Counted from the stretch's first letter, positions 3,780-61,146 are shown. The stretch is DNA of 64,000 bases from an uncultured Chloroflexia bacterium (GCA_963731865.1 CAVSXG010000002.1:612057-676056), one strand, 5' to 3'. Made by a program: numbers and translations. Notes: generated by a model from the sequence alone, not told the origin.

Positions 3780-4563
3780 CTACCCTTCCGGCCCGCCGGG
3801 ATCGTCGGCCGAAAGCGCGGCCGGCGATGCCAGGGGACGCGAGTAGCGCAGGGTGACTGTCCCGGCAAAGGCGGGCATGTCGACCGTTTCGGGCTCCGCG
3901 AACGAGAGACGAATGCCATAGGCCTCCGCCCTGCTGCGCACGAAATCGATGAACCCAGCCGAGCGGCTCACCCTGTCGTACAGGTCGGTAGAGCCGATCG
4001 CCGTCACCTGGTATGGCGGCGCTAGATAGGCCGAGTTGACGAGCAACGACGAGCCGATATCGATGATCGCGGTCGTCGGCGTGACCCGTTCGTTGTTGAT
4101 GGCGATTGCCTCGGCTCCGGCGATCCATAGCTCTTCGACCACCGAGCGAATGTCCCGCGACCCGACGAGGTAGTCGGCATCGCTGGAACCAGGCGGGACC
4201 GGGACCTGCGGAGTCGTCAAGCAGCAGGACCATGCCCGTGCCCGACAACGGGATGAGGCCGGCGGCGATGCGCGCCGCTTCGAGGTCGGCGTTCAACTGG
4301 CGGACCTGATCGGCCGAGCCGATCCCCTGGCCCTCGATCCCCTGGATGGACTCCCGAAGCTCGAGGATGCGGACCTTGAGCTCGTCCTGCTGGGACTGGA
4401 GCTGTGTGGCGGTCTCGAGCAGCGGTGTACGTTCCTGGGTGGTGTAGCGGACCCGAGGACCCTCCGACCCGAGCTGGGCGGCAATCAGGAACCCAAGGGC
4501 CAGGAGCGCAGCGCCGAGCGTGACCTGCCAGCTCGGGATGCGGCGCACCCAGGCCAGGATCAT
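3780..4563 (-). pseudogene. DUF881 domain-containing membrane protein, split by an apparent 1-nt frameshift
   Basis: N-terminal half (MILAWVRRIPSWQVTLGAALL...LLLDDSAGPGP) is in the 4563 frame. C-terminal half (SSDADYLVGSRDIRSVVEELWIAGAEAIAINNERV...) is in the 3780..4220 frame. Junction at ~4186-4200 (ggtcccggtcccgcc). Confidence 0.6.
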
Positions 4564-5945
4564 CCGACCCCCTCCGGTTCGGAACGACGGCGGCGGATCG
4601 CCACCAGCACGATCGCTCCGAACACGACGATGACGATCACGGCAACGAACACCAGGCCGGACGAGCCGGACGTAGCCGAGCCGTTGTTCGGGGAGGCACC
4701 GGGGCTCGACCCGGGCTGGCCAGTCGCCGCGGGCGGAGCGCTTCCGCCGGCCTCGCCCGACCAGGCTGACGGCACGGGCCCGGCCGGCGCGGGTTGGGGG
4801 CCATGTTTTGTCGGCGGTGCCGCACCGAGATCGGCCAGCCAGGCATCGCCAAAGGCCTTCATGTCCTGGCCCAACGCCGCCGTGAAGGCCTCGTCGTCCG
4901 TCCGGCCGTCGGCGTATGACCGGATCAGCGACACGAGCGCGTCCTGGTCGTATGCGCGGACCAGATATTCAACAGCCGACACGCTTTCGCTATAGGCGAG
5001 CGAGAACCGCTCGAAGCTCGTCGGGAACTGACCGGTCAGGCCATCGAGTGGGATGAGCGTGCCGCTGGATGCCGCGCTCTCCACGGCGCCACGATCCAAC
5101 GCGTCATAACCCTGGCTGACGTAGACCGCCAGCCCCTCGTTGAGCCAGTGCGGCGGGAAGTGGTAGGGATTGCTCGACGCGGTGTCGAAGACGAGATGTG
5201 TGAGCTCGTGCGGGATGACGATCCTGACCCAGGAGTCGTTGATCTGACCGGGGGTGATGCGTGCGAACATCGTTCGGATGTCGGCGTTCGCCTGCCCACC
5301 GACGTTCTCCCGAGTGCCCGGTCCGAGTGCATCGTAAAACGCTTCCTCGTCGGCGTAGACGAAGAAGTCCACCGGTTCCGACTCCGTGACCTGGAGGAGT
5401 TCCGAGACCTCGCGAACAGCGTCCTCGCCGATTTTCAGCGCTTCGGCACCAAAGGTTTCGCCACCCTCGTACCAGTGGACCCGGACGAGATCACCAGCCT
5501 CCGTTCGCCAGTCGAACCGATCGTCCTCGAAGGTCAGCCGGACCTCGGGCCCGACCTCGACGTCGCTCGGATCGTCGGCACCAACGAGACGCCAGCGGGC
5601 GGTCAACGGCGTGTTCGGCATGATGTGCCCGTCGGCGACCGGGTCCAGCGCATGACTGAGCGTCACCGCTCCGGTGCCTGGCGGCGGTGGGACCAGGATC
5701 ACCGATTGGCCGACGGATCCTTCGGTCCCGAGGAGCAATTCAACTCGCCGGAGCTGCCGATCGATCGTGACGGGCTGGCTGAACGTGACGCCGGTCTCGA
5801 AGGTGGATGCAGCGGTTGGGGGCCCGAAGTCCGCCCAACCGGTTGCGGCGGCGGCAGGGGTTGCCATACCAGCTGAAAGGAGTACGAAGGCGGCGATGAC
5901 GGGGGCGGCCAGGCCGTGCTGGGCCGTGCGCCGTTGGCCAGTCAC
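4560..5945 (-). CDS. HExxH zinc metallopeptidase (peptidase MA-like), secreted with C-terminal TM anchor
   Basis: Signal peptide, HELTHLVFD zincin motif, S/P/G-rich linker and a C-terminal hydrophobic anchor followed by RRRR. GTG start at 5945 overlaps the SBP stop (GTGA); the gene's stop overlaps the DUF881 start (ATGA). Confidence 0.65.
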   Translation of the reverse strand: MTGQRRTAQHGLAAPVIAAFVLLSAGMATPAAAATGWADFGPPTAASTFETGVTFSQPVTIDRQLRRVELLLGTEGSVGQSVILVPPPPGTGAVTLSHALDPVADGHIMPNTPLTARWRLVGADDPSDVEVGPEVRLTFEDDRFDWRTEAGDLVRVHWYEGGETFGAEALKIGEDAVREVSELLQVTESEPVDFFVYADEEAFYDALGPGTRENVGGQANADIRTMFARITPGQINDSWVRIVIPHELTHLVFDTASSNPYHFPPHWLNEGLAVYVSQGYDALDRGAVESAASSGTLIPLDGLTGQFPTSFERFSLAYSESVSAVEYLVRAYDQDALVSLIRSYADGRTDDEAFTAALGQDMKAFGDAWLADLGAAPPTKHGPQPAPAGPVPSAWSGEAGGSAPPAATGQPGSSPGASPNNGSATSGSSGLVFVAVIVIVVFGAIVLVAIRRRRSEPEGVG

Positions 5946-13513: not shown

Positions 13514-13589
13514 TGGCGCCCCCGGACGGACTCGAACCGCCGACGCAGGCCTTAGGACGGCCTCGCTCTGTCCACTGAGCTACGGGGGC
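13514..13589 (-). tRNA. tRNA-Arg (anticodon CCT)
   Basis: Manual cloverleaf: 7-bp acceptor GCCCCCG/CGGGGGC, D-arm GCTC/GAGC, anticodon stem AGGCC/GGCCT with loop GTCCTAA, T-arm GGCGG-TTCGAGT-CCGTC, encoded CCA. Confidence 0.8.
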
Positions 13590-16388: not shown

Positions 16389-16988
16389 CTACGACCGCGT
16401 TGGATCGCCGGTCCGCCGCCCCCCGTCAAAGTCGCGGTGGAACGCCGAGGCCGTCGGTTCCGATTGGCCCTGGTACTTCGATCCGAGCTCGGGCGAGCCG
16501 TATGGCCGATCCACCGGACTGGACATCTTGAAGAAGCTGATCTGGCCAATCCGCATGCCCGCGTAGAGCGCAATCGGCAGGTTGGCGACGTTCGACAGCT
16601 CGAGCGTCAGGTTCCCCTTCCAGCCCGGATCCACGTAGCCAGCCGTCGAGTGGATCAGGAGGCCGAGTCTCCCGAGGCTCGACTTGCCCTCGAGCCGGGC
16701 GACAAGATCGTCCGGCAGCTCCACCCATTCGTGCGTCTGGCCGAGCACGAACTCGCCCGGATGCAGGATGAAGGCCTCGTCCTCGGCCACGGTCAGGAGC
16801 TCGGTCAGGTCAGGCTGGGGAGCGCGAACGTCGATATAGGCGTACCGGTTGTTGCGAAAGACCCGGAAGCTGTGGTCCAGGTGGAGGTCGACCGACGAGG
16901 GCTGGAGGTCGTGAGCGTCGTACGGCCGGATCTTGACCGTCCCGGCATCGAGCGCTGCCCGGATGTCGCGGTCAGACAACACGCTCAC
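16389..16988 (-). CDS. dcd: dCTP deaminase
   Basis: [14 protein letters not shown]...[16 protein letters not shown]...[23 protein letters not shown] dUTPase-like fold. GTG start overlaps the nrdR stop (GTGA). Confidence 0.85.
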
Positions 16989-17462
16989 TTGGCGTAGCTC
17001 GCCGTGCCACGCTCGGCGTAGAGCGAATCGACCTCTCGCTTGAGCGCCTCGAGATCCTCGAAGCTCTGGTAGACGCTCGCAAAGCGGATATAGGCGATCT
17101 GGTCGATGCCTCGAAGCTGCTCCATCGCAAGGGCACCGATGCGGGACGACGGGACTTCGGTCACGCCAGCCGAGCGAAGCTCGGCTTCGATCGCGTCGGC
17201 CGCCGACTCCGCGGCGCCGTCGGCAACCGGGCGACGAGTCGAGCGCCTTGCGCAGCCCGGAAACGAGCCGCTCACGATCGAACTCCTGGCGCGCGCCATC
17301 GCGCTTGAGCACGATCAGTCGGGCCGCCTCGACGCGCTCGTAGGTTGTGAACCGAAACGTGCAGGCAGCGCATTCTCGGCGTCGCCGGATCGTTGCCGAA
17401 TCATCGAGGTCGCGCGAGTCGACGACACGGGTCTCCCGCTCCGCACACTGGGGGCAGCGCAT
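16985..17462 (-). pseudogene. nrdR: Transcriptional repressor NrdR, split by an apparent 1-nt frameshift
   Basis: N-terminus [42 protein letters not shown]...GLRKAL is in the 17462 frame. C-terminus [10 protein letters not shown]...[11 protein letters not shown]... is in the 16985..17299 frame. Junction near 17226-17236 (gcccggtt). Confidence 0.7.
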
Positions 17463-17543
17463 CGCTCTCCTGTGCCACTGATACCACAAGGGCTTGTGGT
17501 GTGTGCCGAGGATACCACTAGATGGTGTGGTCAGATGCGCGGT

Positions 17544-21465: not shown

Positions 21466-21559
21466 TCAGAGCACCGGCAACTGCCGCGCGGCGGGGGCCG
21501 CGGCGATCCGGGCCGCAAGCACCTCGCTGACGTCCAGGGTCGCCACGGCCCGCCCGCCA

Positions 21560-23590
21560 TCAGCTGCCGCCAGGCCGTCGCTGAGCATGACCATGCAGAA
21601 CGGGCACGACGTCGCCACGGTGGCGGCGCCCGTCTCGACGACCTGACGGGCGCGCTCGGCATTGATCCGCGTGCCGCGCGTCTCCTCCATCCACATTCGA
21701 CCACCACCCGCGCCGCAGCAGAACGTGTTCTTGCCGCTCTTCTCGAGTCTCGGTGATGGTGACCCCGGCCGCGCCGAGGACGTCGCGTGGCGCGGCGACC
21801 ACGTTGTTGTAGCGGGCTAGATAACACGAGTCGTGCACCGTGACGGCGCCGGGCCGGTGATCCCCGGTGGTCGAGGTCGCATCCTCAGGGAGCGTCGCCA
21901 ACCGTCCAGATGCCACGAGATCGGCAAGGAACGTGCTGTGGTGGACGATCCGGAACTGGCCGCCGAGCTGGCCGTATTCGTTGCCGATCGTGTTGAAGCA
22001 GTGTGGGCAGGCGGTCACGATCGTTCGCTCACCCATGCCGTACCGGTTGAGCGTCTCGACGTTGCCCGACGCGAGGATCTGGTAGACGTAGTCGTTGCCC
22101 ATTCGCCGGGCCGGATCGCCGGTGCACGACTCCTCCTGGCCGAGAATGGCGAACTCCACGCCCGCGGCGTGGAGACAGGTCGCCACGGCACGCGCGACCT
22201 TCTGGTTCCGCGGGTCGAATGCGGCCGCGCAGCCCACCCAGTACAGGACCTCGAGCCCATCGAGCCCCCCCGCGGCAGCGACGTCGGCCACGAGGGGCAC
22301 CTCGAACGGGAGGCTCTTCGTCCAGTCGGTCCGCGCAGATGCCGGCTGGCCCCACGGGTTGCCCTGGCCTTCCATCGCCCGGAACGCCGGCGTCAGCTCG
22401 GCCGGGAAGCGGCTCTCCTCGAGGACAAGGTTGCGACGCAGCCCGACGATCTTGTCGACGTGCTCGATCAGGACCGGGCAGGCCTCGACGCACGCGCCGC
22501 AGGTGACGCAATCCCAGACCGCGTCGTACGGGATCGCGGTATCGACGATCGGTCGGGCCAGGGCCGCTGCCGCGGGTCGCGTGCCCTCGAGGCCGTACGT
22601 CTCGCGCACGATGGGGCTGTTGGGGATCAGGTCGATCCCGTGCTCGGCCTCGACCGACATGTCCCGGATGCCCATGATGAAGGTCTTGGGGTTGAGCGGC
22701 TTGCCGGTCGTCCAGGCCGGGCAGGCCGCCTGGCAGCGACCGCATTCGGTGCAGGTAAAGCCGTCGAGCAGATCCTTCCAGCCGAGGTCCTGGAGCGTCT
22801 TGAGCCCAAAGGTCGCGCTCTCGTCCTCGAGATCCATCTGGGGAAGCTCGCCACGCGGCGCGAGCTTGCGGAACAGGATGTTCGGGAAAGCTCGTGGCGA
22901 TGTGGAGGTGCTTGGAGAACGGCAGGTAGCACAGGAACGCCGCGACAAGCGCCATGTGGCCCCACCACAGGACGGCGAATGCAGCTTCGAGGCGTCGATG
23001 CGCCGAGCGCCCGCAGGGGCACGGCCAGGGCGTTCGACACGAACGCGCCGGTGATCTCGCCGTACCGCGCGACCTCGAAGGCCTGGGCCAAGCAGCTCGG
23101 TGGCGACGACCCCGCCGATCATGCCCAGGATCACGAGGGCATCGCGGTTGAAGGTGAGCCGCGCCGGCCGGGTGACGAGCCGACGAAGGTACGCCCAGCC
23201 GATCGAGACGAGGACGATGACGGCGACCACGTTCTGCATCGCGCTGATCGCCGCCCACAGCGCGCCGTCGAGCGGGATCGCGCAGGACGGTCTGGATGAT
23301 CCCGCCGGTCACGATGTCCGCCGTCCCGATCGTCAGCAGCACGAACCCCCAGAAGATGCCCGGCGTGCAGGAGCCCGGCGCGCAGGTCCTTGAACATCTT
23401 GGTCTGGAGGAACGCGTACTGGACCAGCCCGACGAGGCGCGCCGGGACGTTGGCGAACGGGCGCGACGGCCGGGCGACCGCGAACACCCGCAGGTGTCGG
23501 GCCATGGCCAGCGCGAAGAAGACCGCGGCACCCCAGAACACGCGGGAAGACGAGCGGATAGGCCGGGACCTCGACGAACGGCTCGAACAT
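21560..23590 (-). pseudogene. Membrane-bound (Fe-S)-binding oxidoreductase, heterodisulfide-reductase/GlpC-like (EtfD/Rv0338c-like), with multiple frame changes
   Basis: N-terminal polytopic membrane domain and C-terminal 2x(4Fe-4S)/CCG regions (CTECGRCQAACP, CVTCGACVEACP, WVGCAAAF, CPHCFNTIG). Pieces lie in at least 4 frames (23590, 23541, the 22029.. frame, and 23239/21560). ATG 23590 overlaps the mogA stop. Confidence 0.6.
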
Positions 23591-24062
23591 CAGGCGGTCG
23601 TGCCGTGGTCGTGCGGACCGGCCAGTGTCTCGAGCGCGTGGTCGAGCACGGTCTCGATGCGCCTCGAGCGATTCGAGCGCGCCCTTCGGGCTGCCCGGCA
23701 GGTTCGCGATCAGCGATCGCCCGCGCACGCCGACGACCCCGCGCGACAGGTCGGCCAACGGCGTCTTCGCTCGGCCGGCCGCTCGCATCGCCTCGGCGAG
23801 GCCCGGGAACCTCGTAGTCGATCACGCCTCGGGTCGCCTGCGGCGTCACGTCGCGGGGCGTGAGCCCGGTCCCGCCGGTGGTCACGACGAGCGGGTGGCG
23901 TGCGGCTCCCATCGATCGAGCGCCTCGCTCGATCGCAGCCTGGTCATCGGGGACGAGGACCCGCTCCACCTCGTACCCGAGCGTCGCCAGGCGATCGGCG
24001 ACGCCGGCTCCGGAGACGTCCTCGCGGACGCCGGCCGCGGCGCCATCGCTGGCCGTGATCAC
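23590..24062 (-). pseudogene. Molybdenum cofactor biosynthesis protein MogA/MoaB family, frameshifted
   Basis: N-terminal part ...PLVVTTGGTGLTPRDVTPQATRGVIDYEVPG is in the 24062 frame. ...MRAAGRAKTPLADLSRGVVGVRGRSLIANLPGSPKGALESLEA is in a second frame. The tail IETVLDHALETLAGPHDHGTTA* is in a third. Junction at ~23795-23806 (cccgggcc). Confidence 0.65.
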
Positions 24063-24089
24063 CAGCGCGGATCGCTCGGACGCCAGTCG

Positions 24090-24684
24090 TCATGCGCGGG
24101 TCGCCCTGCGCTTCCCGCCGATCCTGCCCGCGATCCGTCGCCCGGATGGCGGTTCGGGGCGGTCGTCCACCGGGCCGGGCGCGCGCTCCCAGGTCCCGCT
24201 CTTGCCGCCGGTCTTGGAGAGCAGTCGCACGCCGCGGATCTCGACGCCGCGCTCGGCGCCCTTGACCATGTCGTAGACGGTCAGCGCCGCGACCGACGCC
24301 GCGGTCATCGCCTCCATCTCGACGCCGGTCTGACCGGTCGTGGCGGCCTCGGCCCGGATCCGCAGGACGCCGACTGGCTCGATCCGGGGTGATCGCCACC
24401 TGGAGATCGGTGAGCGGGAGCGGGTGGCACAGCGGGATCAGCTCGCTTGTCCGCTTGCCGCCCATCACGCCCGCCAGCTCGGCCACGCCGAGGACGTCGC
24501 CCTTGGAGCCGCCGCCGTCGATCACGAGGCTCATCGTCTCGGGCGAGACCGCCACCGTGGCCTCGGCGACCGCGCGACGCGCCGTGACCGGCTTGGCCGA
24601 CACGTCGACCATCCGTGGCCGGCCCGACCGGTCGACATGCGAGAGCCGTCGACGCTCGGATCGCGGCGCTGGTTTCTGGTCCAT
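24090..24684 (-). pseudogene. moaC: Cyclic pyranopterin monophosphate synthase MoaC, frameshifted
   Basis: N-terminus ...[19 protein letters not shown]...[21 protein letters not shown] is in one frame. C-terminus ...[28 protein letters not shown] is in the 24090..24317 frame. Junction at ~24385-24392 (ccccgg). Confidence 0.65.
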
Positions 24685-24689
24685 TCGGT

Positions 24690-26052
24690 CCTCCGGGTCG
24701 GGTGGCGATCGGGTCAGGCGCTGTCGAGCCACCAGATGGCGACCTCGGCGCCCGCCGGAAGCGAGTCGAGCGGATTCTGGAACGATCGCGAGGGCATCGG
24801 CGGCAGCGAGGGCGGACATCACGTGACTCCCCTGCCCGCCCGCGAGGCGGACGCGGACACGGCCCCGCTCGTCGCGGACCGGCGCGCCGTCGTCGGACCG
24901 TTCCGCCTGGACGCGCAGGTACGCCCGACGACCGTGGCTCTTGGTGACGGGCTGCATCGAGCACGGCCCGATCGGCCGGACGGAGCAGGTCGCGCCGCCC
25001 GGCGAGACGCCGGATCGCGGGCCGGACGAAGAGCTCGAACGTGACCGCCGACGAGACCGGGTTTCCAGGCAGGCCAAAGACCGAGGATCGGCGCACCGCC
25101 GTCGGGTCGCGGCGCGGTGCCGAACGCGAACGGCTTGCCCGGTTGGACCGCCACCCGCCAGAGATCGACCCGTCCGATCGTCTCCATGGCGGTCTTGACG
25201 ACGTCGTACGGCCCGACGGACACGCCGCCCGAGATGATCAGCGCGTCGGCCCCGACCTCGATGCCGCCGCGCAGCCGCTTGAGCACGTCGGCGAGATCGT
25301 CGGTCGCGATGCCGAGATCGATCGCTTCTGCGCCCGCGGCTGCGACCTGGGCGCGCAGACCGGGGCCGTTGGCATCGGGAATGCCCGCCGGGCCCAGCGG
25401 CTCGCCGGGCGCCCGGATCTCGTCGCCGGTCGCGAGCACGCCGACACGCGGGCGTCGGTAGACGCGGAGCGCATCGACGCCGGCGCCGGCGACCAGGGCA
25501 ATCGCGGCCGCCGTCAGCGCGACGCCGGCCTCGAACAGCGTGTCGCCCGGCCCGGAGGTCGCTCGCGGCATCGCGGATGGAGCCACCGACCGGCACGACC
25601 TCGTGGACGAGGCAGGCCGACGGCAGCGGACCAGTCGCATCCCGTCCACGAGACCCGGGATGGCCAGCCGCATCGAGCGGGGTCGTCAGTTCGACCGGCA
25701 CGACGGCGTCGGCGCCGTCGGGAAGCCGCGCGCCGGTGGCGATTCGGACGGCCGTCCCGGGCCGGACGACGACGCTTGGCGCGGCCCCTGCCGCGACATC
25801 GCCGATGACGCGGAGCTCGACCGGGCTGGCGTCGGCTGCCCCGGCGGTATCGGCGGCCTGGATCGCGTACCCGTCCATCGCCGAATTCGGCCACGGCGGC
25901 AGCGAGACCCGCGCGGTCACGGGCTCGGCGACGACCCGCCCGAGCGCGGCGGCCGTCGACATCCGCTCGGTCTCCACCGGGACGAGCTCGGCGAGGATCG
26001 CATCGCGTGCCGCCTCGACACTGAGCAGACCCGGAGCCGCGGGCGCCGTCAT
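24690..26052 (-). pseudogene. moeA: Molybdopterin molybdotransferase MoeA, several frameshifts; 3' end approximate
   Basis: MoeA segments (...[20 protein letters not shown]..., ...[24 protein letters not shown]...[11 protein letters not shown]..., ...[29 protein letters not shown]..., ...[19 protein letters not shown]) are distributed over three frames. One junction at ~25547-25556 (gccgggcg). Confidence 0.6.
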
Positions 26053-26068
26053 CGGCTTCGCGCGGGGG

Positions 26069-26772
26069 TCACGACTGGCTCGATCCGCTGCGGTCGTGAG
26101 CTCGGTGGTCGGCGCGCGGCCCACGCCGACGGTCGCCCGGCGCCCCGCGAGCGACGGCAGTGACGAGGGCGAGCGCGATGATCACGACGCCGACGACGAC
26201 CGCGGTCTCCTGCCAGAACACGAAACGGGAAGAGCTGGACGAGCCGCTCCGTCGCCGGGTCGAAGGTGTACGAACCGCCTGGGAACAGCAAGCCGATGGA
26301 ACAGCTCGAACAAGGCCTCGAACGCGACCAGCGCAACGACCCCGATCAACGCCACGGCTCCCGCCAGCACGAGCGCGCCACGACGAACCGCGACCCAGAC
26401 CGCCGCGTCGTTCCATGCGCCGGCTCGCCGACGAGGAGGATGACGAGCGACGCCGCCGCGAGGATCCAGAGGCCCGATGAAGACCGTCCGCACGTCGCGC
26501 ATGTGCCCGCGCTCGCGCTCGACGAGGACCGGCGACCCGCCAACCTCCACGTCGAAGTCCGGCGGCCCGATGACCAGGTCCGACAGGATGGCGTCGGTCG
26601 CGGTCCGGAGCTCCTCGGTCGTGTAGCCGGTCCACGCGACGGCGTTCGCGCGACCCTGCTCGAAGGCCACCCACTGCGGGGTCAGGAACGGCAGCACAGC
26701 GGCCGTGACGACGACGGTCGCGGTCGCCACCCCGATCAGGATCGAAGCGATCGGCCTCCGGATGGCGTGCAC
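26069..26772 (-). pseudogene. Hypothetical integral membrane protein (possibly DUF1461/TIGR01906-like), apparently frameshifted
   Basis: Convincing N-terminus MHAIRRPIASILIGVATATVVVTAAVLPFL...VERERGHMRDV. A C-terminal TM ([21 protein letters not shown]) lies in another frame. Confidence 0.35.
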
Positions 26773-26798
26773 CGGGTCATCCTAGCCCGTCGCGCGGC

Positions 26799-27188
26799 CT
26801 ACTCGTCCTCGAGCGTCTTCGCCTGGTCCCACCAACCCTCCATGGCGAGATCCGATGGCGGGTCGACCTTGAGCTCGATGGCCGCCGCGCGGACCCGCGC
26901 CTTGAACACATCCAGCGGCAACTCGAGGATCTGCCGAAGGCCCTCGATCCCCGCCTGGACCAACAGCTCGTGCTCCGCCGGACCAAAGCTCGCGAGGTTG
27001 AGCATGAGCGCCTCGTCTCGCCACATCAGCACGTCGTTGACGGTGGCGTCGACCTGGTCCGCGAGGTTCTGGCGGCGGGTCGGCGTCTCCGAAACCTCGA
27101 GCAGCAGACCGGTCGTGAAGACGCCCTGATGGTCGAGGCGATCGAGATGGACCGGCTCGATGCGGGTCAGCTCGTTGATCGGTGGCAC
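26799..27188 (-). CDS. DUF4332-like helix-hairpin-helix protein
   Basis: LTRIEPVHLDRLDHQGVFTTGLL and a second HhH-like repeat. Confidence 0.45.
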   Translation of the reverse strand: MPPINELTRIEPVHLDRLDHQGVFTTGLLLEVSETPTRRQNLADQVDATVNDVLMWRDEALMLNLASFGPAEHELLVQAGIEGLRQILELPLDVFKARVRAAAIELKVDPPSDLAMEGWWDQAKTLEDE

Positions 27189-27277
27189 GGGTCGGGCGGG
27201 ACCTCCAAAGGCGATGCTGGCGATCTGGCTTGGCTCGCGATGGGGTCATTATCCCCGCGCTGGTGGTGCGTCGCGCG

Positions 27278-27592
27278 CTAGATCGGTCGGAGATGCGAGA
27301 TCACACCGTAGGTCCTTCCGGTCTCGGGGTCGTTCCGGGCCGCAACGACCAGGCGTCGCAGTCCCGCCGGAGTCTCGATCCGGCAGGCCAGAGCCGCGCC
27401 ACGCTGGTAGACAAGGTCCATCAGCTCGAACGCGGCCGGCGGCAGATCCAGGAGCGCCTCACGGGCCGGCTGGCCGACGCACCCATTGCCGAACGCCTCG
27501 ATAAAGGCGGCGTTGCCATGCACGATGAGGTGGCCGGGGCCAATGTGAAACGCCGCGGGGTACGGGCGTCGCGCGGCTGAGTCGACGCCCAT
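27278..27592 (-). CDS. Small hypothetical protein (PAS-like fold), translationally coupled to the decarboxylase
   Basis: ATG at 27592 overlaps the decarboxylase TGA (ATGA). 104 aa with no low-complexity sequence. Confidence 0.4.
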   Translation of the reverse strand: MGVDSAARRPYPAAFHIGPGHLIVHGNAAFIEAFGNGCVGQPAREALLDLPPAAFELMDLVYQRGAALACRIETPAGLRRLVVAARNDPETGRTYGVISHLRPI

Positions 27593-29092
27593 CAGACCGC
27601 CGCCACCTGTTCCGCGGCGGCCGCGCGCAACAGGTCCCACGCTCGCTCGACGTGCCGGCTCTCGGTCCGAAGGTTGCCGACCGCGACCCGGATCGTGAAT
27701 CGCCCGGCGAGTCGCGTGTGCGACAGGAACACCTCGCCGGTACGATTGACCGCATCCATGATCGCCGCATTCGCGTCATCGAGCAGCTCGCGCGACGTCC
27801 GGCGCCTCGGCACGGTTGGCAAGCTCGGCGGGCCGCCAGCGGAAGCAGACCGTCGAAAATGGGACAGGCGCCAGGAGCTCCCAGTCCGGATCGGCCCCGA
27901 TCGTCGCGGCGAGATCGGCGGCGAGCTCGAGGTGGCGCTCGATCCGTCGTCGCAGACCGTCGAGCCCGAACCAGCGCAGCTGGATCCACAGCTTGAGCGC
28001 CCGGAACCGACGTCCGAGCTGCGGGGTGTACTCGTTGTAGTCGCGGACCGGCGTCGCGCGATCGAGGGTCCGCAGGTACTCGGGCACAAGACTGAAGGCT
28101 GCCCGCAGCTCCGGCATTCGGCGCGTCAGCAGAAGCGATGCGTCGAGCGGCGTGAACAGCCACTTGTGCGGGTTGATCACGATCGAGTCGGCTCGTTCCC
28201 AACCCGCAAAGGGTGCGCGACGGTCGGGCAGCATGGCGACGACGCCGGCATAGGCGGCATCGACGTGCAGCCAGAGGCCTTCCTGCGCCGCGACGTCCGC
28301 AATCGCTGCGACCGGATCGACCGAGGTCGACGATGTCGTTCCGACCGTCGCCACGATTGCGATCGGCCGGAATCCACGCAGCCCGGTCTTCCGCGATCGC
28401 CTGCCGCGAGCGCGTCCACGACCATCTCGAACCGCTCGTTCACCGGAACGCGGACGAGCGAAACACGCCCAAGCCCGAGGGTCATGCACGCCTTCTCGAC
28501 CGAGCTGTGCGCCTCGGCCGAGGCGTAGACGCGCAACCCGGCACCCAGGTCGTCGCGGGCGGCCAGACCGCGAGCCGAGGCATCCGTCCCCGCGGCTTCC
28601 CGGGCCGCCGCCAGCGCGATCAGCGTCGAGGTCGACGCGGTGTCCGGTGAGGAGTCCGTCGAACCCGTCGGGCAACCCGACGGCCTGCCGCAGCCAGTCG
28701 ACGACGACCTCCTCGAGCTCCGTGCCGATCGGCGAGGTCCGCCACAGCATCGGGTTCTGGCCGAGGGCCGCCGTCAGCATCTCCCCGAGGATTCCGGGGC
28801 CCGATGCCGTCGTCGCGAAATAGGCGAGGAACCCCGGGTGTTGCCAGTGCGTGGCGTTTGGTTCGACCAGCCGGGCATAGTCGGCCAGGATCGCCTCGAT
28901 CGGTTCAGGGGCCTCCGGCGCCGCGGTCGGGAACTGGGGTCGCAGGGAGCCGGGCTCGATCGCCGGAAAGACCGCGCGTGTCTCGACCGTTTCAAGGTAG
29001 TCGGCCATGACGTCGACGACCGCGTGCGCGGCCGCCCGAAAGGCCTCGACGTCCATGTCAAGGAGTGGGGCTGGATGGTCCGGGTCGGTCAC
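27592..29092 (-). pseudogene. Pyridoxal-dependent (group II) amino-acid decarboxylase, frame changes in the middle
   Basis: N-terminus ...WQHPGFLAYFATTASGPGILGEMLTAALG..., middle ...RVYASAEAHSSVEKACMTLGLG... (other frame), PLP region ...WLHVDAAYAG...INPHKWLFTPLD..., C-terminus ...LSHTRLAGRFTIRVAVGNLRTE (third frame). Confidence 0.65.
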
Positions 29093-41547: not shown

Positions 41548-41642
41548 GTCACCCCTCCTTCGTGTGCTCTGATGCGTTTTGCACGACGCGGAGCGCCCGG
41601 GGCGGCCCTGCCAGGAGATCAGCTCGAGGTCGCCGCGACGGG

Positions 41643-42449: not shown

Positions 42450-42480
42450 ACGCGCCTCGGAGTCTAGCAGAGGCCCGAGC

Positions 42481-52658: not shown

Positions 52659-53586
52659 TCAGGCCCGCGGGTGGGCCCGGCTATAGACGTCCCGGATCCG
52701 CTCTCCGGTCAGGTGCGTGTAGAGCTGTGTCGTGGAGATACTCGCATGACCGAGCAACTCCTGGACGATCCGCAGGTCGGCGCCGCCCTCGAGCAGATGC
52801 GTGGCAAACGAGTGCCGCAGGGTATGCGGACTGACCCGAGCGGCGAGGCCCGCCCGGGACGGCGGCCCGTTTGACGGCGGCCCATGCCTGTTGGCGGGCC
52901 AGGCGGCCGCCGCGATCGCCGACGAACAGGGGACCGCCTCGACCCGGGTGGGCAGGCCCGACCGCGAGGAGTCTCGCCCTCGGCCCATCGATCCAGCGTG
53001 CCAACCAGTCCAGGGCAACCTCGCCGACCGGGACGAGGCGTTCCTTGTCACCCTTTCCGATCACCCGGACGAACGACCCGTCGGTCGATAGGTCCTCACG
53101 GTCGAGTCCGGTAGCTTCGCTGATGCGCAGGCCAGCGGCGTAGAGCAGCTCGAGCACAGCTCGATCGCGCAACCCGTGTGGCTCGCCGTCCTCGCCGCCG
53201 GCCGCGTCGAGCAGGCGGTCCGTTTCGGCGACCGTGAGCGTCTCGGGCAGTAGCCGCGAGGGTCGCGGCAGATCCAGGTGCGCGGCCACGTCGACACCGA
53301 TCAGGCCCTCGCCGTAGGCGAACCGATAGAACCCCTTGAGCGCGGCCGCCCGCCGTCGGAGGCTGCTCGGCGCCAGCCCCGGATCGTTGCGACGCCCACG
53401 GCGCGTTCGAGCGGCCAGGTAGTCGATCGCCGCCTCCGCGGACGCGGACCATGCCCGCCCGACATCGCGCGCGGCCGCGAAGTCGGTCAGGTCGGCCCGA
53501 TAGGCCCGGATCGTCGCCGGGGAGAGCCCACGCTCAACGTTGAGATAGGTCAGGTAGCCGTCGATCGCGGGCTGAAGGTCGGTCAT
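52659..53586 (-). pseudogene. xerD: Tyrosine recombinase XerD, apparent 1-nt frameshift near the C-terminus
   Basis: MTDLQPAIDGYLTYLNVERGLSPATIRAYRADL... in the 53586 frame. Catalytic C-terminus ...[40 protein letters not shown] is in the 52659 frame. Junction ~52865-52872 (gtcccgggcg). Confidence 0.75.
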
Positions 53587-53596
53587 GTGGCCGGCG

Positions 53597-55298
53597 TCAT
53601 CCCGCCCGGGCGACACCGGCCCGCCACGCCTCGGCCCGATCGAGCAGCTCCCGGGCGCTGGCGAGGCTCGTCGCCCCGCCCGCATCGCCGGCGAGCATCT
53701 GGGCGAGCTCGACGATCCGTCCCTCGTGGTCGAGCTGCTCCACCTCCGTGACGGTCCGGCCGTCGCGCTCTCGCTTGACGATCCGATACTGGGCGTCGGC
53801 GTGCGCCGCGATCTGCGGCAGATGCGTCACGCAAAGCACCTGGTGGCGACGGGCCAGGGCCCACAGGCTTCGACCGACCGGATCGGCGCCACGGCCTCCG
53901 ATCCCCGTGTCGACTTCGTCGAAGACCAGCACTGGCGTTTCGTCGGCTTCCGCGAGCACCTGCTTGATCGCGAGCGCAACACGGGACAGTTCCCCGCCAG
54001 ACGCGATCCGAGCCAGCGGGCGAGCCGGTTCGCCCGGGTTTGGCGCGAGGCGGTAGACGACCTGGTCGGCGCCGCTGGCATCGAATGCGACGGCGTCGCC
54101 GTCGAGCTCGATCGCGGCCTCGTCATCCGCAGCCACGCGTCGTCCAAGACCCACCTCGAAGACACCGGCCGGAAAGCCGAGCTCGGAGAGGATCCCGCCG
54201 ACCGCCCGGACAAGCGCGTCCGCGGCCGTTCGCCGCGCCTCGGACAGGGCCGTCGCCTCGCTGGCGATCGCAGCCAGCAAGGCCGCGTCCTCGCGCTGCC
54301 GACGGGCTCGCTCGTCGTCGAGACCGCGGAGTCGCTCGAGCTCGGCCAGGGCTCGTTCCCCGTGGGCGATGACGGCCGCCTCATCCTCGCCGTACCGGCG
54401 CTCGAGCGCGTAGATCGCGCCGAGTCGCTCCTCGAGCGCGGTGAGCGCGGCGGGATCGTGGTCGACGCCATCCGCGAGATCGCGGATCTCCGCCGCCACG
54501 TCGGTCAGCTCCGCTTCCAGACCGGTCAACCGTTCCGCGAGCAGTTCGAACCGCGGGTCGAGCCGGGCCAGCCCACGTGCCTCGCGCGCAGCCACGGCCG
54601 TCGCTTCGCGGGCGCCGGCGCCGTCGGCGGTCAACGCGTCATGGACGGTCACCGCTCCCCGGGCGATCGCCTCGCCATGCTGGGCGGCCGCGAGGCGTGC
54701 ACGGATCGCTTCGGCTTCTCCCGGCACCAGGCGGGCCGCCACCGATCTCTGCCGCCTCGTGTTCGAGCAGGTCCACGCGACGGGCCAGCTCGCGCGGTTC
54801 GATCGACAACTCCGACAGGGCCGCGCGGTTGGCGCGCCATCGCTCGACGACGTCGACCATGGACGCGCGCGCCGGTCCGTGCCCGCCAAACGCGTCGAGG
54901 AGGTCCCGCTGCCAGCGTTCATCGAGCAGCCGTTGCTGATCATGCTGGCCGTGGATCTCCACGAGCGGCCCTACCTCGTCCGCAAGGCGCGACGCGGTCG
55001 TGGCGAGGTCGTCGAGCCTGGCCGTTGAACGCCCGTTCGCCGCAACCTCGCGCACGGCGATCAGCGGCTCCGGCAGGCGGTCGAACAACGCCTCGACCCG
55101 CGCCGTTTCGGCGCCATGCCGGATCACGGTCGTGTCGGCTCGTGCGCCGGCAACCAGACCGAGCGCGTCGATGATCAGGCTCTTTCCGGCACCCGTCTCG
55201 CCGGTGATCACGTTGAGGCCTGGGGCGAGCGTCAGGCGAAGCCGGTCGATCAATGCGAGGTCGATGACGGTCAGTTCCAGGAGACGCCCGGCGTTCAC
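53597..55298 (-). pseudogene. recN: DNA repair protein RecN, apparent frameshift
   Basis: N-terminus ...LNVITGETGAGKSLIIDALGLV (Walker A) to ...LEHEAAEI in the 55298 frame. Remainder including ...LVFDEVDTGIGG is in the 53597 frame. Junction ~54725-54740. Confidence 0.8.
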
Positions 55299-56173
55299 GA
55301 GGGCAACAAGGCTACCTTGTGCCTGAGGAGGTCCCAGAACGGTTGGGCGCCACGTGGCTCGATGAGCCGGATCGGCCGCTCGACCGCGCGGACCTCGACG
55401 ACGTCGCCGACCGAGATCGGCAGGTCCTCCCGACCGTCGATGGAGACGAGGGCCTCGTGGGCGTCGACCACCGTGCAGCGAACGACCTGGCTGGGGCTCA
55501 CGACAACGGAGCGGATCGCCGACAAGTACGCCGCGATCGGGGTGACGATCAGGTTGCGGCTGACCGGGTCGACGATCGGGCCGCCCGCGGAGAACGAGTA
55601 CCCCGTCGATCCCGTCGGACTGGCTACGACCAGGCCGTCGGCGATGAACGTGGCGAGGTGCGAGTCGTCGATCTCCACGTCGAGACGGCAGACGCGTGCC
55701 AGCGATCCACGCGCCACGACGATGTCGTTGAGGGCGAAATGGCGCGTCTCTTCGGGGGTCGGTGCCAGGCGCCCGGGTGCGTCATGCGGGAGGCCGGCTC
55801 CACGAAGGATTCGGCCCTCGAGCGCCATCCGTTCGTCGATCCGGTACTCGCCCTCGGAGATCAGCCCGAGCACGGTCTCGAAGTCGTTGCCCTCGGCTTT
55901 CGACAGGAAGCCGACCTTGCCGAGGTTGATCCCGAGCAGCGGGACGTCCACTTCCGAGACCGCGCGCGCCGCCCGAAGGAACGTGCCGTCGCCCCCGAGG
56001 ACGACGAGCAGGTCCGTCGTCGGGAGCTCGCGAAGGAGGGTCGCGGTCTCGCTCGACGGCGCTTCCCACTCCCCGATTCCGCGGACCTGGCACCAACCGG
56101 CGGCGCGGGCACTGAGCTCGACCGCGGCCTCGATCGTGGGGTTGTAGGCAAACCCGATCCGCTTGACGGTCAT
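55295..56173 (-). CDS. nadK: NAD kinase
   Basis: VVLGGDGTFL...NLGKVGFL...ASPTGSTGYSFSAGGP motifs. Start ATG 56173. Confidence 0.85.
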   Translation of the reverse strand: MTVKRIGFAYNPTIEAAVELSARAAGWCQVRGIGEWEAPSSETATLLRELPTTDLLVVLGGDGTFLRAARAVSEVDVPLLGINLGKVGFLSKAEGNDFETVLGLISEGEYRIDERMALEGRILRGAGLPHDAPGRLAPTPEETRHFALNDIVVARGSLARVCRLDVEIDDSHLATFIADGLVVASPTGSTGYSFSAGGPIVDPVSRNLIVTPIAAYLSAIRSVVVSPSQVVRCTVVDAHEALVSIDGREDLPISVGDVVEVRAVERPIRLIEPRGAQPFWDLLRHKVALLPS

Positions 56174-59491: not shown

Positions 59492-59627
59492 CGTCCTCGT
59501 CGTCGGTTTGGGTCATTCGGTCAAGCGGCGGGGCCACGAGCATACCAAGGCGCACCCCGATCACCGCGACGAGCGCCACGACCCCGAGGAACACGACGGC
59601 CTCAGCCATGCGGCGCCCGATCCGCGA

Positions 59628-61146
59628 TCATCGCGGGTCCGCGGAGGCCGGGATCTCGCCACGGGCGACCCGGAGGGACAACTTCGATCCCGGCGGCGCA
59701 TCGTCGGGATCACGGACGATCGCGCCGTTCCCCGCCAGCCGAACGATGGCGTAACCACGCTCCAGGGTCGCCTGCGGCCCGAGGACGCCAAGTGCCGCGG
59801 TCGCGCTGCCGAGCGACCGGCGACCGGTGTTCAGCCGCGTGACGATGAGCGGATCCATGACGACGGCTTGACCCAGCCGGACCCGGTCGCGCGCCAGCCG
59901 TGACGGCAGCGTTGGTGCCAGGCGGCGACCGAGTCGTTCGACCGCCCCCTGGTGAGAGCCGACCCGCTCACGCGTCGCCCTCGTAGCTCGATCGAGCAGC
60001 AGCCCGACGCGCTCCCGCGCCATCGTGAGCTGCACGGCGGGACTCAGTCGATCAAGGGCGCGACGTTCCGCCGCGATCTCACGGACCGTGGCCCGAACGC
60101 GCGACGTGGCTGCGCCGTCGAGCCTGCGTCCAAGCGATGCAATCGCGGCCGCGTGTTCGGCACGATCCGGAACGACGATCTCGGCCGCGGCCGACGGCGT
60201 CGGTGCCCGGACGTCGGCGGCGAAGTCGGAGAGCGTGACGTCGGTCTCGTGGCCAACCCCGCAGACGACGGGCAGGGTGTGCGCAACGATGGCTCGGACG
60301 ACGGCCTCGTCGTTGAACGCCCAGAGATCCTCCAGCGATCCCCCACCCCGGGCCAGGATCGTGAGCACCGGGGCATCGTCGGCTCGCCCGGCTGCGATCT
60401 GCGCGGCGGCATAGCGCTCGACCTTGCGGAGGGCGCCGACCAGGCTGCCCGGGGCGGCATCGCCCTGGACCTGCGCCGCGACGAGCACGACCCTCGTCAG
60501 CGGCCAGCGCCGCGACAGAACATGGCAGATGTCCTTCCAGACCGCGCCGCTGGGGCTCGTGATCACGGCGATCGTCCGTGGACGGCTCGGCAGACGGCGT
60601 TTGCGCTCCGTGGCAAAGAGACCTTCCGCCGCCAGCCGGGCCTTGAGCGCCTCGAACCGCAGCGTGAGATCGCCGAGCCCGGACGGCTGGATCGAATTCG
60701 ACGTAGAGCTGGAGCGCGCCCTGTGGCTCGAACAAGTCGATCCGGCCGTGCGCCACGACACGCAGCCCAGCCTGGGCCTCGAATGCCGAGCGTTGCCGAT
60801 CGTCGCGGAACCAGACGCACTGGAGCTGGTTCCGGTCGTCCTTGAGCGCGAAATAGGCATGGCCGGCCGACGAGATCGTGACCCGCCCGATCTCGCCTTC
60901 CACCCAGAGGTCCGAGAGTTGCGGGTCGGTGCGCACAGCGCCCCGGATCGCTCGCGTGACCTCGCTGACGGCGAGGATTCGGACCCCGAAGGTGCCCGGA
61001 GCGGCGAGGGATCCGGGCGAGGACCCCGCGGGGGGACCCGGTGGGATCGTCGCCCGGCCAACGGGTCTCTGTGACGCCTCGCCCGGCTCTGCCGGGAGCG
61101 AATCCCAGCTTGGCAGCGCCCAATCAGGTGGTTCGTTACCGCTCAT
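59628..61146 (-). pseudogene. xseA: Exodeoxyribonuclease VII large subunit, apparent frameshift
   Basis: OB-fold N-terminus ...LSDLWVEGEIGRVTISSAGHAYFALKD...LQLYVEF in the 61146 frame. Remainder QPSGLGDLTLRFEALKARLAAEGLF... in the 61061 frame. Junction ~60690-60700. Confidence 0.75.

What the first reader, a model, noticed from the sequence alone, without database searches (positions are those of the whole stretch)
3780..61146. At least 15 genes are split between two frames by single-nucleotide indels, mostly at CCCGG/CCGGG
For each split gene the N- and C-terminal halves are individually convincing homologues but lie in different frames, so the long listed ORFs (e.g. 486, 366, 559, 677, 726, 707 aa) are chimeras of real sequence plus out-of-frame read-through. 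I located the junction by hand for 14 cases. Nine fall exactly at CCCGG or CCGGG: DUF881 at ~4190 (ggtcccggtcc), nrdR at ~17230 (gcccggtt), EtfD-like at ~23330 (gccgggcat), mogA at ~23800 (cccgggcc), moaC at ~24388 (ccccggat), moeA at ~25550 (gccgggcg), hybrid HK at ~30320 (gcccggtc), HD protein at ~50660 (gccgggtc), xerD at ~52868 (tcccgggcg). Four fall at other short C/G runs or elsewhere: recN at ~54730, EtfD at ~22950 and ~23560, xseA at ~60695. A CCSGG 5-mer should cover only about 10% of random 10-nt windows at this GC content, so the enrichment looks real. Essential genes are affected (xerD, recN, xseA, moaC), which argues for a systematic sequencing/assembly artefact rather than loss of function. 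A motif-specific artefact is what base-modification-sensitive long-read chemistries produce at methylated sites. CCSGG is the specificity of BcnI-type m4C/m5C restriction-modification systems, so the pattern may be reporting an active CCSGG (or CCGG) methyltransferase. Alternatively these are real pseudogenes in a decaying genome.
Basis: partly seen in the sequence, partly recalled or inferred. Interest (0 to 1): 0.8.

Follow-up and report, generated by a model that had tools for sequence, protein, structure and literature searches.

The report
Long-read assembly errors, not methylation footprints
Thirteen genes in this soil-bacterium genome piece are broken by about 30 stray single bases that are almost certainly consensus errors of a long-read-only metagenome assembly, and the proposed link to a CCSGG methylation site does not hold up for most of them.

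Summary
The split genes are real in the sequence. The window is a 69% GC Limnocylindria (Chloroflexota) fragment. Frameshift-aware alignment to intact orthologues finds about 30 single-base lesions in 13 minus-strand genes: 29 extra bases and 1 missing base. Removing or restoring them gives 13 full-length ORFs with no other damage.

Twenty-three lesions lie in one 6.9-kb patch (21,748-28,647), at 3.3/kb against 0.25/kb elsewhere.

The CCSGG claim fails for the set. Only 3 of 29 insertion intervals overlap CCSGG (1.6 expected), no k-mer is enriched and homopolymers are not favoured.

One residue of the idea remains. The seven lesions outside the patch all lie 1-15 nt from a CCSGG (p=2.5e-4). 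This is only the best of 1,320 motifs (family-wise about 0.3) and is not seen in 64 lesions from related Nanopore assemblies.

The same orthologous genes carry 57 insertions and 7 deletions in 158 kb of Nanopore-only MAGs, also in patches. They carry 4 events in 167 kb of Illumina assemblies.

The window's chimeric XerD product is on public record on a 2.32-Mb contig.

Verdict: a known kind of long-read consensus artefact. The artefact reading is right and the methylation reading is unsupported.

The parts
21748..28647 (-). Error patch: 23 single-base insertions in six consecutive genes (Fe-S oxidoreductase, MogA, MoaC, MoeA, Lit, PLP decarboxylase). Rate is 3.3 per kb against 0.25 per kb in the rest of the assessed coding sequence.
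   Evidence: P of 23 or more of 30 in the patch = 2e-11. DNA alignment to the intact Illumina contig L163 shows isolated single extra bases in the window at the same places.
4209..4211 (-). +1 insertion in the first DUF881 gene (gene about 3783-4563). Gene-strand context is GAC TCC|g|CAG GTC CCG.
   Evidence: 15 references at 85-90% identity; 5 of the 6 shown read Q-V-P-V-P in the shifted frame across the motif.
17240..17241 (-). +1 insertion in nrdR (16988-17460). Context is CTC|g|ACT, 9 nt upstream of the CCCGG. It creates the 366-aa NrdR/Dcd chimeric ORF.
   Evidence: T-R-R-P-V conserved in the shifted frame in all references.
21748..21749 (-). +1 insertion, Fe-S/CCG oxidoreductase (21469-23588). 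Context is GAG|a|CTC GAG.
22883..22890 (-). +1 insertion, Fe-S oxidoreductase. Context is AGC TT(T) CCC GAA.
22991..22993 (-). +1 insertion, Fe-S oxidoreductase. Context is ACG|c|CTC GAA.
23088..23093 (-). +1 insertion, Fe-S oxidoreductase. Context is GAG CTG|c|TTG GCC.
23278..23280 (-). +1 insertion, Fe-S oxidoreductase. Context is CTG CG(C)G ATC.
23358..23363 (-). +1 insertion, Fe-S oxidoreductase.
23541..23543 (-). +1 insertion, Fe-S oxidoreductase. Context is CCG|c|GTG TTC.
23659..23659 (-). +1 insertion, mogA (23602-24072). Context is GCG|c|ATC GAG.
23800..23809 (-). +1 insertion, mogA.
24372..24377 (-). +1 insertion, moaC (24105-24682). Context is GCC AGT|c|GGC.
   Evidence: P-D-R-A read in the unshifted frame across the motif.
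24770..24773 (-). +1 insertion, moeA (24723-26050).
24954..24954 (-). +1 insertion, moeA.
25081..25083 (-). +1 insertion, moeA. Context is ATC CTC|g|GTC TTT.
25542..25550 (-). +1 insertion, moeA.
26219..26220 (-). +1 insertion, Lit-family membrane protein gene (26117-26761).
26288..26294 (-). +1 insertion, Lit gene.
26400..26409 (-). +1 insertion, Lit gene. Lower confidence: together with the next lesion it could instead be a single deletion.
   Evidence: 2 references.
26428..26431 (-). +1 insertion, Lit gene. Lower confidence, see the previous entry.
   Evidence: 4 references.
26471..26478 (-). +1 insertion, Lit gene.
27789..27791 (-). +1 insertion, PLP-dependent decarboxylase gene (27610-29054).
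28376..28377 (-). +1 insertion, PLP decarboxylase. Context is GCT GCG|t|GGA TTC.
28400..28403 (-). +1 insertion, PLP decarboxylase.
28644..28647 (-). +1 insertion, PLP decarboxylase. Context is CTC ACC|g|GAC ACC.
30313..30316 (-). The only deletion (-1). It lies in the linker of the hybrid histidine kinase (29536-32175), between CCC AC and TTG CCC GGT, 4 nt upstream of the CCCGG.
   Evidence: an 891-aa intact orthologue, P0361, 89% identical, reads K-P-S-L-P-G across the site.
Context is CCG GGT|c|TTT, immediately 3' of CCGGG.
   Evidence: Neither fragment has a Pfam hit.
52859..52862 (-). +1 insertion in xerD (52681-53600). Context is GCC GCC G(t)C CCG GGC, immediately 5' of CCCGGG.
   Evidence: The resulting 301-aa chimeric product is on public record.
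54736..54741 (-). +1 insertion in recN (53600-55300). Context is ATC GGT GGC|g|GCC.
   Evidence: 35 of 35 loci.
60697..60698 (-). +1 insertion in xseA (about 59713-61146). The window reads GTC GAA TTC GAT where the relative reads GTC GA-TTC GAT.
   Evidence: Seen directly in a DNA alignment to the 91%-identical Illumina contig L161.

Best explanation
The frameshifts are consensus errors of a long-read-only metagenome assembly, most probably Nanopore reads assembled with Flye and polished with Medaka. They are not mutations.

The underlying genes are intact. The deposited consensus carries about 29 spurious extra bases and lacks one base.

Most errors sit in one patch of about 7 kb where the consensus was locally poorly supported or poorly polished. 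Possible reasons are few reads, mixed strains or a polishing failure; which one applies is inferred, not shown. There the errors fall without regard to sequence context. A few isolated errors occur elsewhere.

Gene callers then produce truncated and chimeric proteins from these stretches.
For: SHOWN:
1. Every lesion is a single base. The ratio is 29 insertions to 1 deletion (binomial p=6e-8). Bacterial mutation spectra are deletion-biased (my own knowledge of the literature).
2. Deleting 29 bases and restoring 1 gives 13 uninterrupted full-length ORFs with no nonsense or other lesions.
3. The Fe-S gene has 7 insertions. Once corrected it is 94% identical over 99% of its length to intact 705-aa orthologues, among thousands of intact homologues.
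4. DNA alignments to Illumina contigs of close relatives show the window's isolated extra bases directly (L161, L163).
5. Across the same 17 orthologous genes, 15 Nanopore-only MFD MAG loci carry 57 insertions and 7 deletions in 158 kb, concentrated in patches in different genes. Nineteen Illumina loci carry 1 insertion and 3 deletions in 167 kb (p=5e-16).
6. The closest long-read relative, L164, has two +1 insertions in its MBL gene.
7. The errors are context-free. There is no CCSGG, homopolymer or k-mer enrichment.
8. They are strongly clustered: 23 of 30 in 6.9 kb (p=2e-11).
9. The window's exact products are on record on one 2,319,914-bp contig held by NCBI and ENA. These include the chimeric 301-aa XerD and a 173-aa kinase fragment. 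A contig of that size from an uncultured soil lineage implies long reads.

LITERATURE:
- The MFD long-read MAGs are R10.4.1 reads assembled with Flye and polished with one round of Medaka 1.8.0 (PMC12313526).
- Nanopore bins below about 40x coverage need short-read polishing to remove frameshift-causing indels (PMC9262707).
- Soil Nanopore assemblies show more frameshift errors than HiFi assemblies (PMC13087279).
Against: - The sequencing platform of the window's own source was not identified. Look-ups of the source contig failed.
- Nanopore consensus errors are usually described as homopolymer-linked deletions and insertions. Here they are almost purely insertions and not homopolymer-linked. 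I could document this only empirically, in the MFD loci, and could not explain it algorithmically.
- The cause of the patch is not shown.
- The seven isolated lesions lie closer to CCSGG than chance predicts. This hints at a second, motif-linked component.
Confidence: 0.9

Rival explanations
1. Partial methylation reading. Apart from the context-free patch, the isolated indels are basecalling or polishing errors induced near CCSGG sites that a genome-specific BcnI-type methyltransferase modifies. They would then report that enzyme's activity.
For: - All seven lesions outside the patch lie 1-15 nt from a CCSGG. The median distance is 6 nt against a null median of 47 nt (Mann-Whitney p=2.5e-4).
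- Four of the seven lie within 6 nt, against 12% expected.
- CCSGG ranks first of 1,320 motifs tested. Control motifs of like composition (GGSCC, CGSCG, GCSGC, CCWGG) show nothing.
- Medaka 1.8.0 predates the methylation-aware polishing models (my own knowledge).
Against: - The motif was chosen from these same data. After correction for 1,320 motifs the family-wise p is about 0.3.
- Only 7 events are involved.
- Three of the distances (9, 15 and 15 nt) are too far for a pore-context effect.
- At most 7 of 474 sites are affected.
- There is no CCSGG proximity in 64 lesions from 15 related Nanopore loci, nor in L164.
- There is no CCSGG avoidance (observed/expected 1.09, the same as in relatives).
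- Methylation-linked Nanopore errors are mostly substitutions (my own knowledge).
- No methyltransferase gene was looked for.
Confidence: 0.2
2. The frameshifts as a whole are a motif-specific artefact at methylated CCSGG sites.
For: - Three lesions overlap CCSGG and two abut it.
- Over all 30 lesions there is a mild overall shift towards the motif (Mann-Whitney p=0.015).
Against: - The 23 patch lesions show no association with the motif (median distance 35 nt against 47 nt, p=0.28).
- Overlap is 3 of 29 against 1.6 expected (p=0.22).
- Sixty CCSGG sites in the patch carry 3 lesions. Fifty-three sites in the neighbouring 8 kb carry none.
- A short motif cannot give a 13-fold regional rate difference.
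Confidence: 0.03
3. The lesions are genuine. On this reading they are real pseudogenes in a decaying genome or population, or the work of a localised insertion-biased mutational process.
For: - The frameshifts are present in the public record as deposited.
- Some hit genes are dispensable (Moco synthesis, the decarboxylase).
Against: - The 29:1 insertion bias runs against the deletion bias of bacterial mutation.
- No nonsense mutations, larger deletions or excess amino-acid change accompany as many as 7 frameshifts in one gene.
- Housekeeping genes are hit (nrdR, xerD, recN, xseA).
- Other Nanopore MAGs show the same kind of patches in other genes, and Illumina assemblies of the same genes show none.
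Confidence: 0.03
4. A refinement of the best explanation rather than a true rival. The inserted bases would be double calls of two alleles at strain-polymorphic wobble positions in a region where two strains were collapsed into one consensus.
For: - Most lesions can be read as a third codon position plus one extra, different base. Deleting either base then gives a synonymous codon (GAG|A, ACG|C, CTC|G, GGT|C, GAA|T and others).
- At xseA both candidate residues (E and D) occur among relatives.
- Patchiness would follow from local strain divergence.
- The MFD authors report that microdiversity affects MAG recovery.
Against: - A random insertion is indistinguishable from this in about two thirds of cases.
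- Three lesions are best placed between the first and second codon positions: 23542, 24954 and 52859.
- No read or population data were available to test the idea.
Confidence: 0.25

Closest known systems
Indel (frameshift) consensus errors in Nanopore-only metagenome-assembled genomes (Sereika et al. 2022, PMC9262707; MFD long-read catalogue, PMC12313526; nanoMDBG benchmark, PMC13087279; frameshift-correction tools such as proovframe, 10.1101/2021.08.23.457338)
   Same: - Single-base indels fragment otherwise intact genes.
- The lesions are absent from short-read assemblies of the same genes.
- They are present in related Nanopore-only MAGs.
- They produce truncated and chimeric gene calls.
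   Different: - The lesions are almost purely insertions and are not tied to homopolymers.
- They are concentrated in a multi-kb patch at about 3 per kb rather than spread evenly.
- The platform of this particular record was inferred, not read from the record.
Methylation-motif-associated Nanopore basecalling and polishing errors (for example at Dam or Dcm-type sites)
   Same: - Such an artefact would be genome-specific and motif-linked.
- The seven isolated lesions lie unusually close to CCSGG.
   Different: - Most lesions have no motif.
- Very few motif sites are affected.
- The errors are indels several bases away from the motif, not substitutions at it.
- The association is not significant after correction for multiple motifs.
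BcnI-type (CCSGG) restriction-modification systems
   Different: - No methyltransferase or endonuclease gene was identified in the window.
- There is no motif avoidance.
- There is no modification evidence.
Genuine pseudogene accumulation in reductive genomes
   Same: Many genes are interrupted by frameshifts.
   Different: - There is no mixture of lesion types and no deletion bias.
- The encoded protein sequences show no decay.
- Neighbouring 8-kb stretches are untouched.

Membership tests
Long-read consensus indel artefact | Lesions are single-base indels only, and correcting them restores full-length ORFs with no other damage. | tested here: met
   Removing 29 bases and adding 1 gives 13 uninterrupted ORFs covering 98-100% of the orthologue span. 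The corrected Fe-S protein is 94% identical over 99% of its length to intact orthologues.
Long-read consensus indel artefact | Orthologues in independent short-read assemblies are intact at the same positions. | tested here: met
   Nineteen Illumina loci carry 4 events in 167 kb. DNA alignments to L161 and L163 show the window's extra bases.
Long-read consensus indel artefact | The same lesion type recurs in other assemblies made with the technology, in unrelated genes. | tested here: met
   Fifteen MFD Nanopore loci carry 57 insertions and 7 deletions in 158 kb, in patches in different genes. L164 has two insertions in its MBL gene.
Long-read consensus indel artefact | The source record is a long-read-only assembly. 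| tested here: inconclusive
   Exact products map to a 2,319,914-bp contig held by NCBI and ENA. That size implies long reads, but the record name and platform could not be retrieved.
Long-read consensus indel artefact | Raw reads or independent accurate reads disagree with the consensus at the lesions. | not testable with these tools
   No read data are available.
Methylation-motif-specific error at CCSGG | Lesions fall in or next to the motif more often than chance. | tested here: not met
   All insertions: 3 of 29 overlap (expected 1.6, p=0.22) and 5 of 29 lie within 2 nt (p=0.08). Patch lesions show no association.
Methylation-motif-specific error at CCSGG | The isolated lesions, away from the patch, are motif-proximal. 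| tested here: inconclusive
   Seven of 7 lie within 15 nt (p=2.5e-4). CCSGG is the top motif of 1,320, but Bonferroni correction gives about 0.3. The signal is not reproduced in 64 MFD lesions.
Methylation-motif-specific error at CCSGG | A substantial share of motif sites is affected. | tested here: not met
   There are 474 sites in the window and at most 7 have a lesion within 15 nt. None of the 53 sites in 13.7-21.5 kb has one.
Methylation-motif-specific error at CCSGG | A cognate methyltransferase is encoded in the genome. | not tested
   Only 64 kb of a contig of about 2.3 Mb is available, and I did not scan the window's ORFs for methyltransferase domains. The motif is not avoided (observed/expected 1.09).
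Methylation-motif-specific error at CCSGG | A base-modification signal at the motif. | not testable with these tools
   This needs raw Nanopore signal or kinetics.
Genuine pseudogenes / genome decay | Mixed lesion spectrum (deletions at least as common as insertions, nonsense mutations, larger deletions). | tested here: not met
   There are 29 insertions and 1 deletion, with no internal stops after correction.
Genuine pseudogenes / genome decay | Relaxed constraint on the encoded sequence. | tested here: not met
   Corrected proteins are 84-96% identical to the closest orthologues, like their unbroken neighbours. No formal dN/dS was computed.
Programmed frameshifting | A conserved slippery site or stimulatory element at a conserved position, also present in orthologues. 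| tested here: not met
   Orthologues are single ORFs at every site. No shared sequence context was found.

The most novel reading that the evidence does not exclude
The 7-kb patch could be real. On that reading a natural Limnocylindria population carries a gene block (Fe-S oxidoreductase, Moco synthesis genes, Lit, decarboxylase) riddled by a localised, insertion-only mutational process, or the assembly captured such a lineage.

A milder unexcluded reading (about 0.2) is that the seven isolated indels are footprints of an active CCSGG methyltransferase.
Probability: 0.03. Interest if true: 0.6.

Novelty: not a real feature. Interest (0 to 1): 0.12.

Why it matters
The main consequence is for data hygiene.

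- A public 2.32-Mb MAG contig contains at least one stretch with about 3 spurious bases per kb.
- Its deposited gene calls include chimeric proteins. One example is a 301-aa 'XerD' with an out-of-frame tail. The long NrdR-Dcd and MoeA/MoaC read-through ORFs in the window are likewise chimeras.
- Molybdenum-cofactor synthesis, an ETF-linked oxidoreductase and several DNA-maintenance genes would be scored as missing or pseudogenised in pathway or completeness analyses.

The comparison also gives a practical warning. In 6 of 15 related Nanopore-only MAG loci the same insertion-only, patchy errors occur. Genome-wide quality scores can therefore hide locally very poor consensus.

A methylation motif should not be inferred from frameshift junctions placed by eye in a 70% GC genome.

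Tried and rejected
- **GC3 frame plot** and **codon-usage Viterbi**. Both were too coarse for closely spaced lesions. I used them only to confirm shift directions and to screen regions without references.
- **tblastn and alignment with stop-to-stop ORFs of relatives**. These gave many false junctions at gene boundaries and in alternative frames. I replaced them with called genes of L163/L164 and database proteins.
- **Finding the source record by exact protein look-up.** EtfB, PpnK and P0133 were not in the gene-position index. Only the contig length and the holding archives could be learned.
- **Chimeric products.** The exact NrdR-Dcd, XseA and DUF881 chimeras were not on record, probably because a different start codon was called.
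- **Motif hunting.** I tested CCSGG, CCGG, CCWGG, C/G runs, TCGA, GATC, CTCGAG and GC-rich 6-mers, then all 2- to 5-mers. Nothing survived correction for multiple tests.
- **CCSGG avoidance** as a sign of a restriction system: none.
- **Repeat or paralogue of the patch** within the window that might misdirect polishing: none.
- **Suspected further frameshifts** at about 11114, 46888, 51648 and 51941. I rejected them as an intact lipoprotein ORF, upstream non-coding sequence, a gene boundary and a misaligned SHOCT-like tail.
- **Pfam on ORFs of the atypical 36.6-42.4 kb stretch:** no hits.

Full report
**What the window is.** The 64-kb window has 66-72% GC. Its acyl-CoA dehydrogenase is 72-85% identical to proteins of Limnocylindria/Limnocylindrales (Chloroflexota) metagenome-assembled genomes. 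Many of these relatives are 'MFD' genomes. Those come from the Microflora Danica long-read project: Nanopore R10.4.1 reads, Flye assembly and one round of Medaka 1.8.0 (PMC12313526). Others are Illumina assemblies. Gene order is conserved with these relatives over window positions 13.5-29 kb. A second set of 80 metagenome contigs around the NAD kinase gene covers 44.7-64 kb.

**Method.** I aligned three kinds of reference to the window:
- ORFs of the relatives;
- the called genes of two close syntenic contigs, L163 (Illumina, JGI) and L164 (a 2.34-Mb long-read contig);
- close database proteins for the kinase and DUF881.

To localise each lesion I deleted every base in turn and scored the corrected translation against up to 23 references. 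The type of each lesion follows from the frame change itself. I checked types independently by DNA alignment and by a codon-usage Viterbi path.

**The observation.** The split genes are real. I find about 30 single-base lesions in 13 genes, all on the minus strand:

| Gene | Lesions |
|---|---|
| DUF881 | 1 |
| NrdR | 1 |
| Fe-S/CCG oxidoreductase | 7 |
| MogA | 2 |
| MoaC | 1 |
| MoeA | 4 |
| Lit | 4-5 |
| PLP-dependent decarboxylase | 4 |
| Hybrid histidine kinase | 1 |
| XerD | 1 |
| RecN | 1 |
| XseA | 1 |

- Twenty-nine lesions are extra bases and one, in the kinase linker, is a missing base.
- Alignments on both sides of each lesion are near-perfect.
- Deleting the 29 bases and restoring one turns all 13 genes into single uninterrupted ORFs spanning the orthologue.
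- The Fe-S gene, after removal of seven bases, encodes a protein 94% identical over 99% of its length to intact 705-aa orthologues. Thousands of intact homologues exist.
- A 91%-identical Illumina contig shows the xseA lesion directly: GTCGA-TTCGAT against GTCGAATTCGAT in the window.
- L163 shows isolated single extra bases in the window at the patch lesions.
- Genes in stretches without close references look intact as long ORFs. The total is therefore close to 30.

- The direction is almost uniform: 29 insertions to 1 deletion (p=6e-8).
- Twenty-three of the 30 lesions lie between 21,748 and 28,647. That is 3.3 per kb against 0.25 per kb in the other 28 kb of assessed coding sequence (p=2e-11). 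The 8 kb just upstream, from ACAD to Glrx, has a single lesion.

**The CCSGG claim.**
- CCSGG occurs 474 times and covers 3.4% of bases.
- Three of 29 insertion intervals overlap it (1.6 expected, p=0.22). Five lie within 2 nt (2.4 expected, p=0.08).
- Runs of three or more C or G are not favoured (5 observed, 6.3 expected). No lesion is in a run of four.
- None of 2,720 k-mer tests survives correction; the best p is 2e-4.
- About half of the lesions could be a duplication of a neighbouring base, which is what random insertion predicts (my count from the intervals).

- Three are compatible: 23358-63, 23800-09 and 25542-50.
- Two abut the motif: 50674-75 and 52859.
- Four are excluded, because conserved residues are read in a single frame straight across the motif.
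  - DUF881: the insertion is TCC|g|CAG and Q-V-P-V-P follows in the new frame.
  - NrdR: CTC|g|ACT, then T-R-R-P-V.
  - MoaC: T-P-D-R-A is still in the old frame, and the shift comes 11-15 nt later.
  - Kinase: a missing base between CCC AC and TTG, then L-P-G.

**A residue of the idea.**
- The seven lesions outside the patch all lie 1-15 nt from a CCSGG. Their median distance is 6 nt against 47 nt for random coding positions (Mann-Whitney p=2.5e-4).
- The 23 patch lesions show nothing (median 35 nt, p=0.28).
- Control motifs of similar composition show nothing.
- In an unbiased scan of 1,320 motifs CCSGG ranks first, but the family-wise probability of such a best hit is about 0.3.
- Three of the distances (9, 15 and 15 nt) are beyond any plausible pore-context effect.
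- At most 7 of 474 sites are affected.
- An independent set of 64 lesions in 15 related Nanopore loci shows no proximity (medians 50 and 53.5 nt against 47). Nor do the two lesions in L164.
- The motif is not avoided (observed/expected 1.09, as in relatives).

I treat this as an open, weak lead. It is not a finding.

**What it is.** The decisive comparison uses the same 17 orthologous proteins aligned to every Limnocylindria locus (binomial test):

| Loci | Coding sequence compared | Insertions | Deletions |
|---|---|---|---|
| 19 Illumina-assembled | 167 kb | 1 | 3 |
| 15 Nanopore-only MFD | 158 kb | 57 | 7 |

- The difference between the two sets has p=5e-16.
- In the MFD loci the lesions are again insertion-biased and again patchy.
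- Their patches fall in different genes in different genomes. L003, for example, has 14 insertions in hyp184, AhpC and DsbD. L033 has 10 spread from Lit to EtfB.
- The window has 22 insertions and 2 deletions in 16 kb by this test.

The pattern follows the assembly technology, not the gene or the lineage.

**Source of the window.** The window's own products are on record on one 2,319,914-bp contig held by NCBI and ENA. They are the 301-aa XerD chimera, a 173-aa kinase fragment starting at GTG 30042, EF-P, EtfB and PpnK. A contig of that length from an uncultured soil bacterium implies long reads. I could not retrieve the record itself.

**Literature.**
- Nanopore bins below about 40x coverage retain frameshift-causing indels unless polished with short reads (PMC9262707).
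- Soil Nanopore assemblies show more frameshift errors than HiFi assemblies (PMC13087279).
- The MFD authors themselves looked for Nanopore-associated errors in low-coverage MAGs.

**Mechanism: shown and inferred.**
- Shown: the lesions are single extra bases with no sequence context. They are clustered, linked to the technology, and are the only damage to the genes.
- Inferred: they arose when the consensus was built or polished from too little or conflicting read evidence over a stretch about as long as a read.
- Not determined: why insertions dominate, and whether the patch reflects low depth, collapsed strains or an unpolished chunk.
- One attractive refinement is that both alleles of a wobble-position polymorphism were called. 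It fits most sites but cannot be separated from random insertion with these data.

**Rivals.**
- Real pseudogenes are very unlikely. The insertion bias is the opposite of bacterial mutation bias. No other lesions accompany as many as seven frameshifts in one gene. Housekeeping genes are hit, and Illumina assemblies of the same genes are clean.
- Programmed frameshifting is excluded, because orthologues are single ORFs at every site.
- CCSGG methylation as the general cause is refuted by the patch lesions and by the site statistics. As the cause of the seven isolated lesions it remains possible, at about 0.2.

**Verdict.**
The frameshifts are real and more numerous than reported. The motif enrichment is not confirmed.
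It is an artefact, but it is not a methylation footprint.
- This is a known kind of long-read consensus error and not a biological feature.
- Interest is low. It has some practical value as a warning about locally very poor consensus in Nanopore-only MAGs and about chimeric proteins entering public collections.

Noticed in passing
window 36600-42450: A stretch of about 6 kb with atypical codon usage: GC3 periodicity is weak and the Viterbi path calls it non-coding. It has few convincing ORFs, among them a secreted protein at 36817-37650 and a cupredoxin-like ORF at 40984-41646. None has a Pfam hit. The stretch ends at a tRNA-Pro(GGG) gene at 42373-42449. It may be an integrated or foreign island, or poorly conserved non-coding DNA.
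   Followed up: partly
L003 (hyp184, AhpC, DsbD), L001, L007, L033, L037, L049; L164:17434 and 17900: Other public Nanopore-only Limnocylindria MAG loci carry the same insertion-type frameshift patches, up to about 7 per kb in L003, in different genes. Nineteen Illumina loci are clean.
   Followed up: yes
window 52681-53600 (P0363): The frameshifted XerD is in public protein collections as a 301-aa chimeric sequence with a real N-terminus and an out-of-frame tail. An intact 318-aa orthologue (P0364) sits in the same 90% cluster.
   Followed up: yes
window 16389-17489: After the nrdR insertion the shifted frame runs without a stop into the downstream dcd gene. The result is a 366-aa ORF that looks like a NrdR-Dcd fusion but is an artefact.
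   Followed up: yes
window 13514-13589: A tRNA-Arg(CCT) gene marks the point where synteny with most relatives ends, at about 13.5 kb.
   Followed up: no
window 3103-4563: Two DUF881 (PF05949) paralogues lie in tandem. Only the upstream copy is frameshifted, and the read-through ORF fuses them into a 486-aa chimera.
   Followed up: partly
window 33565-35445: An intact 626-aa plus-strand ORF with VWA and fibronectin type III domains and a Thr/Pro-rich linker. It sits in a stretch for which I had no close references.
   Followed up: no
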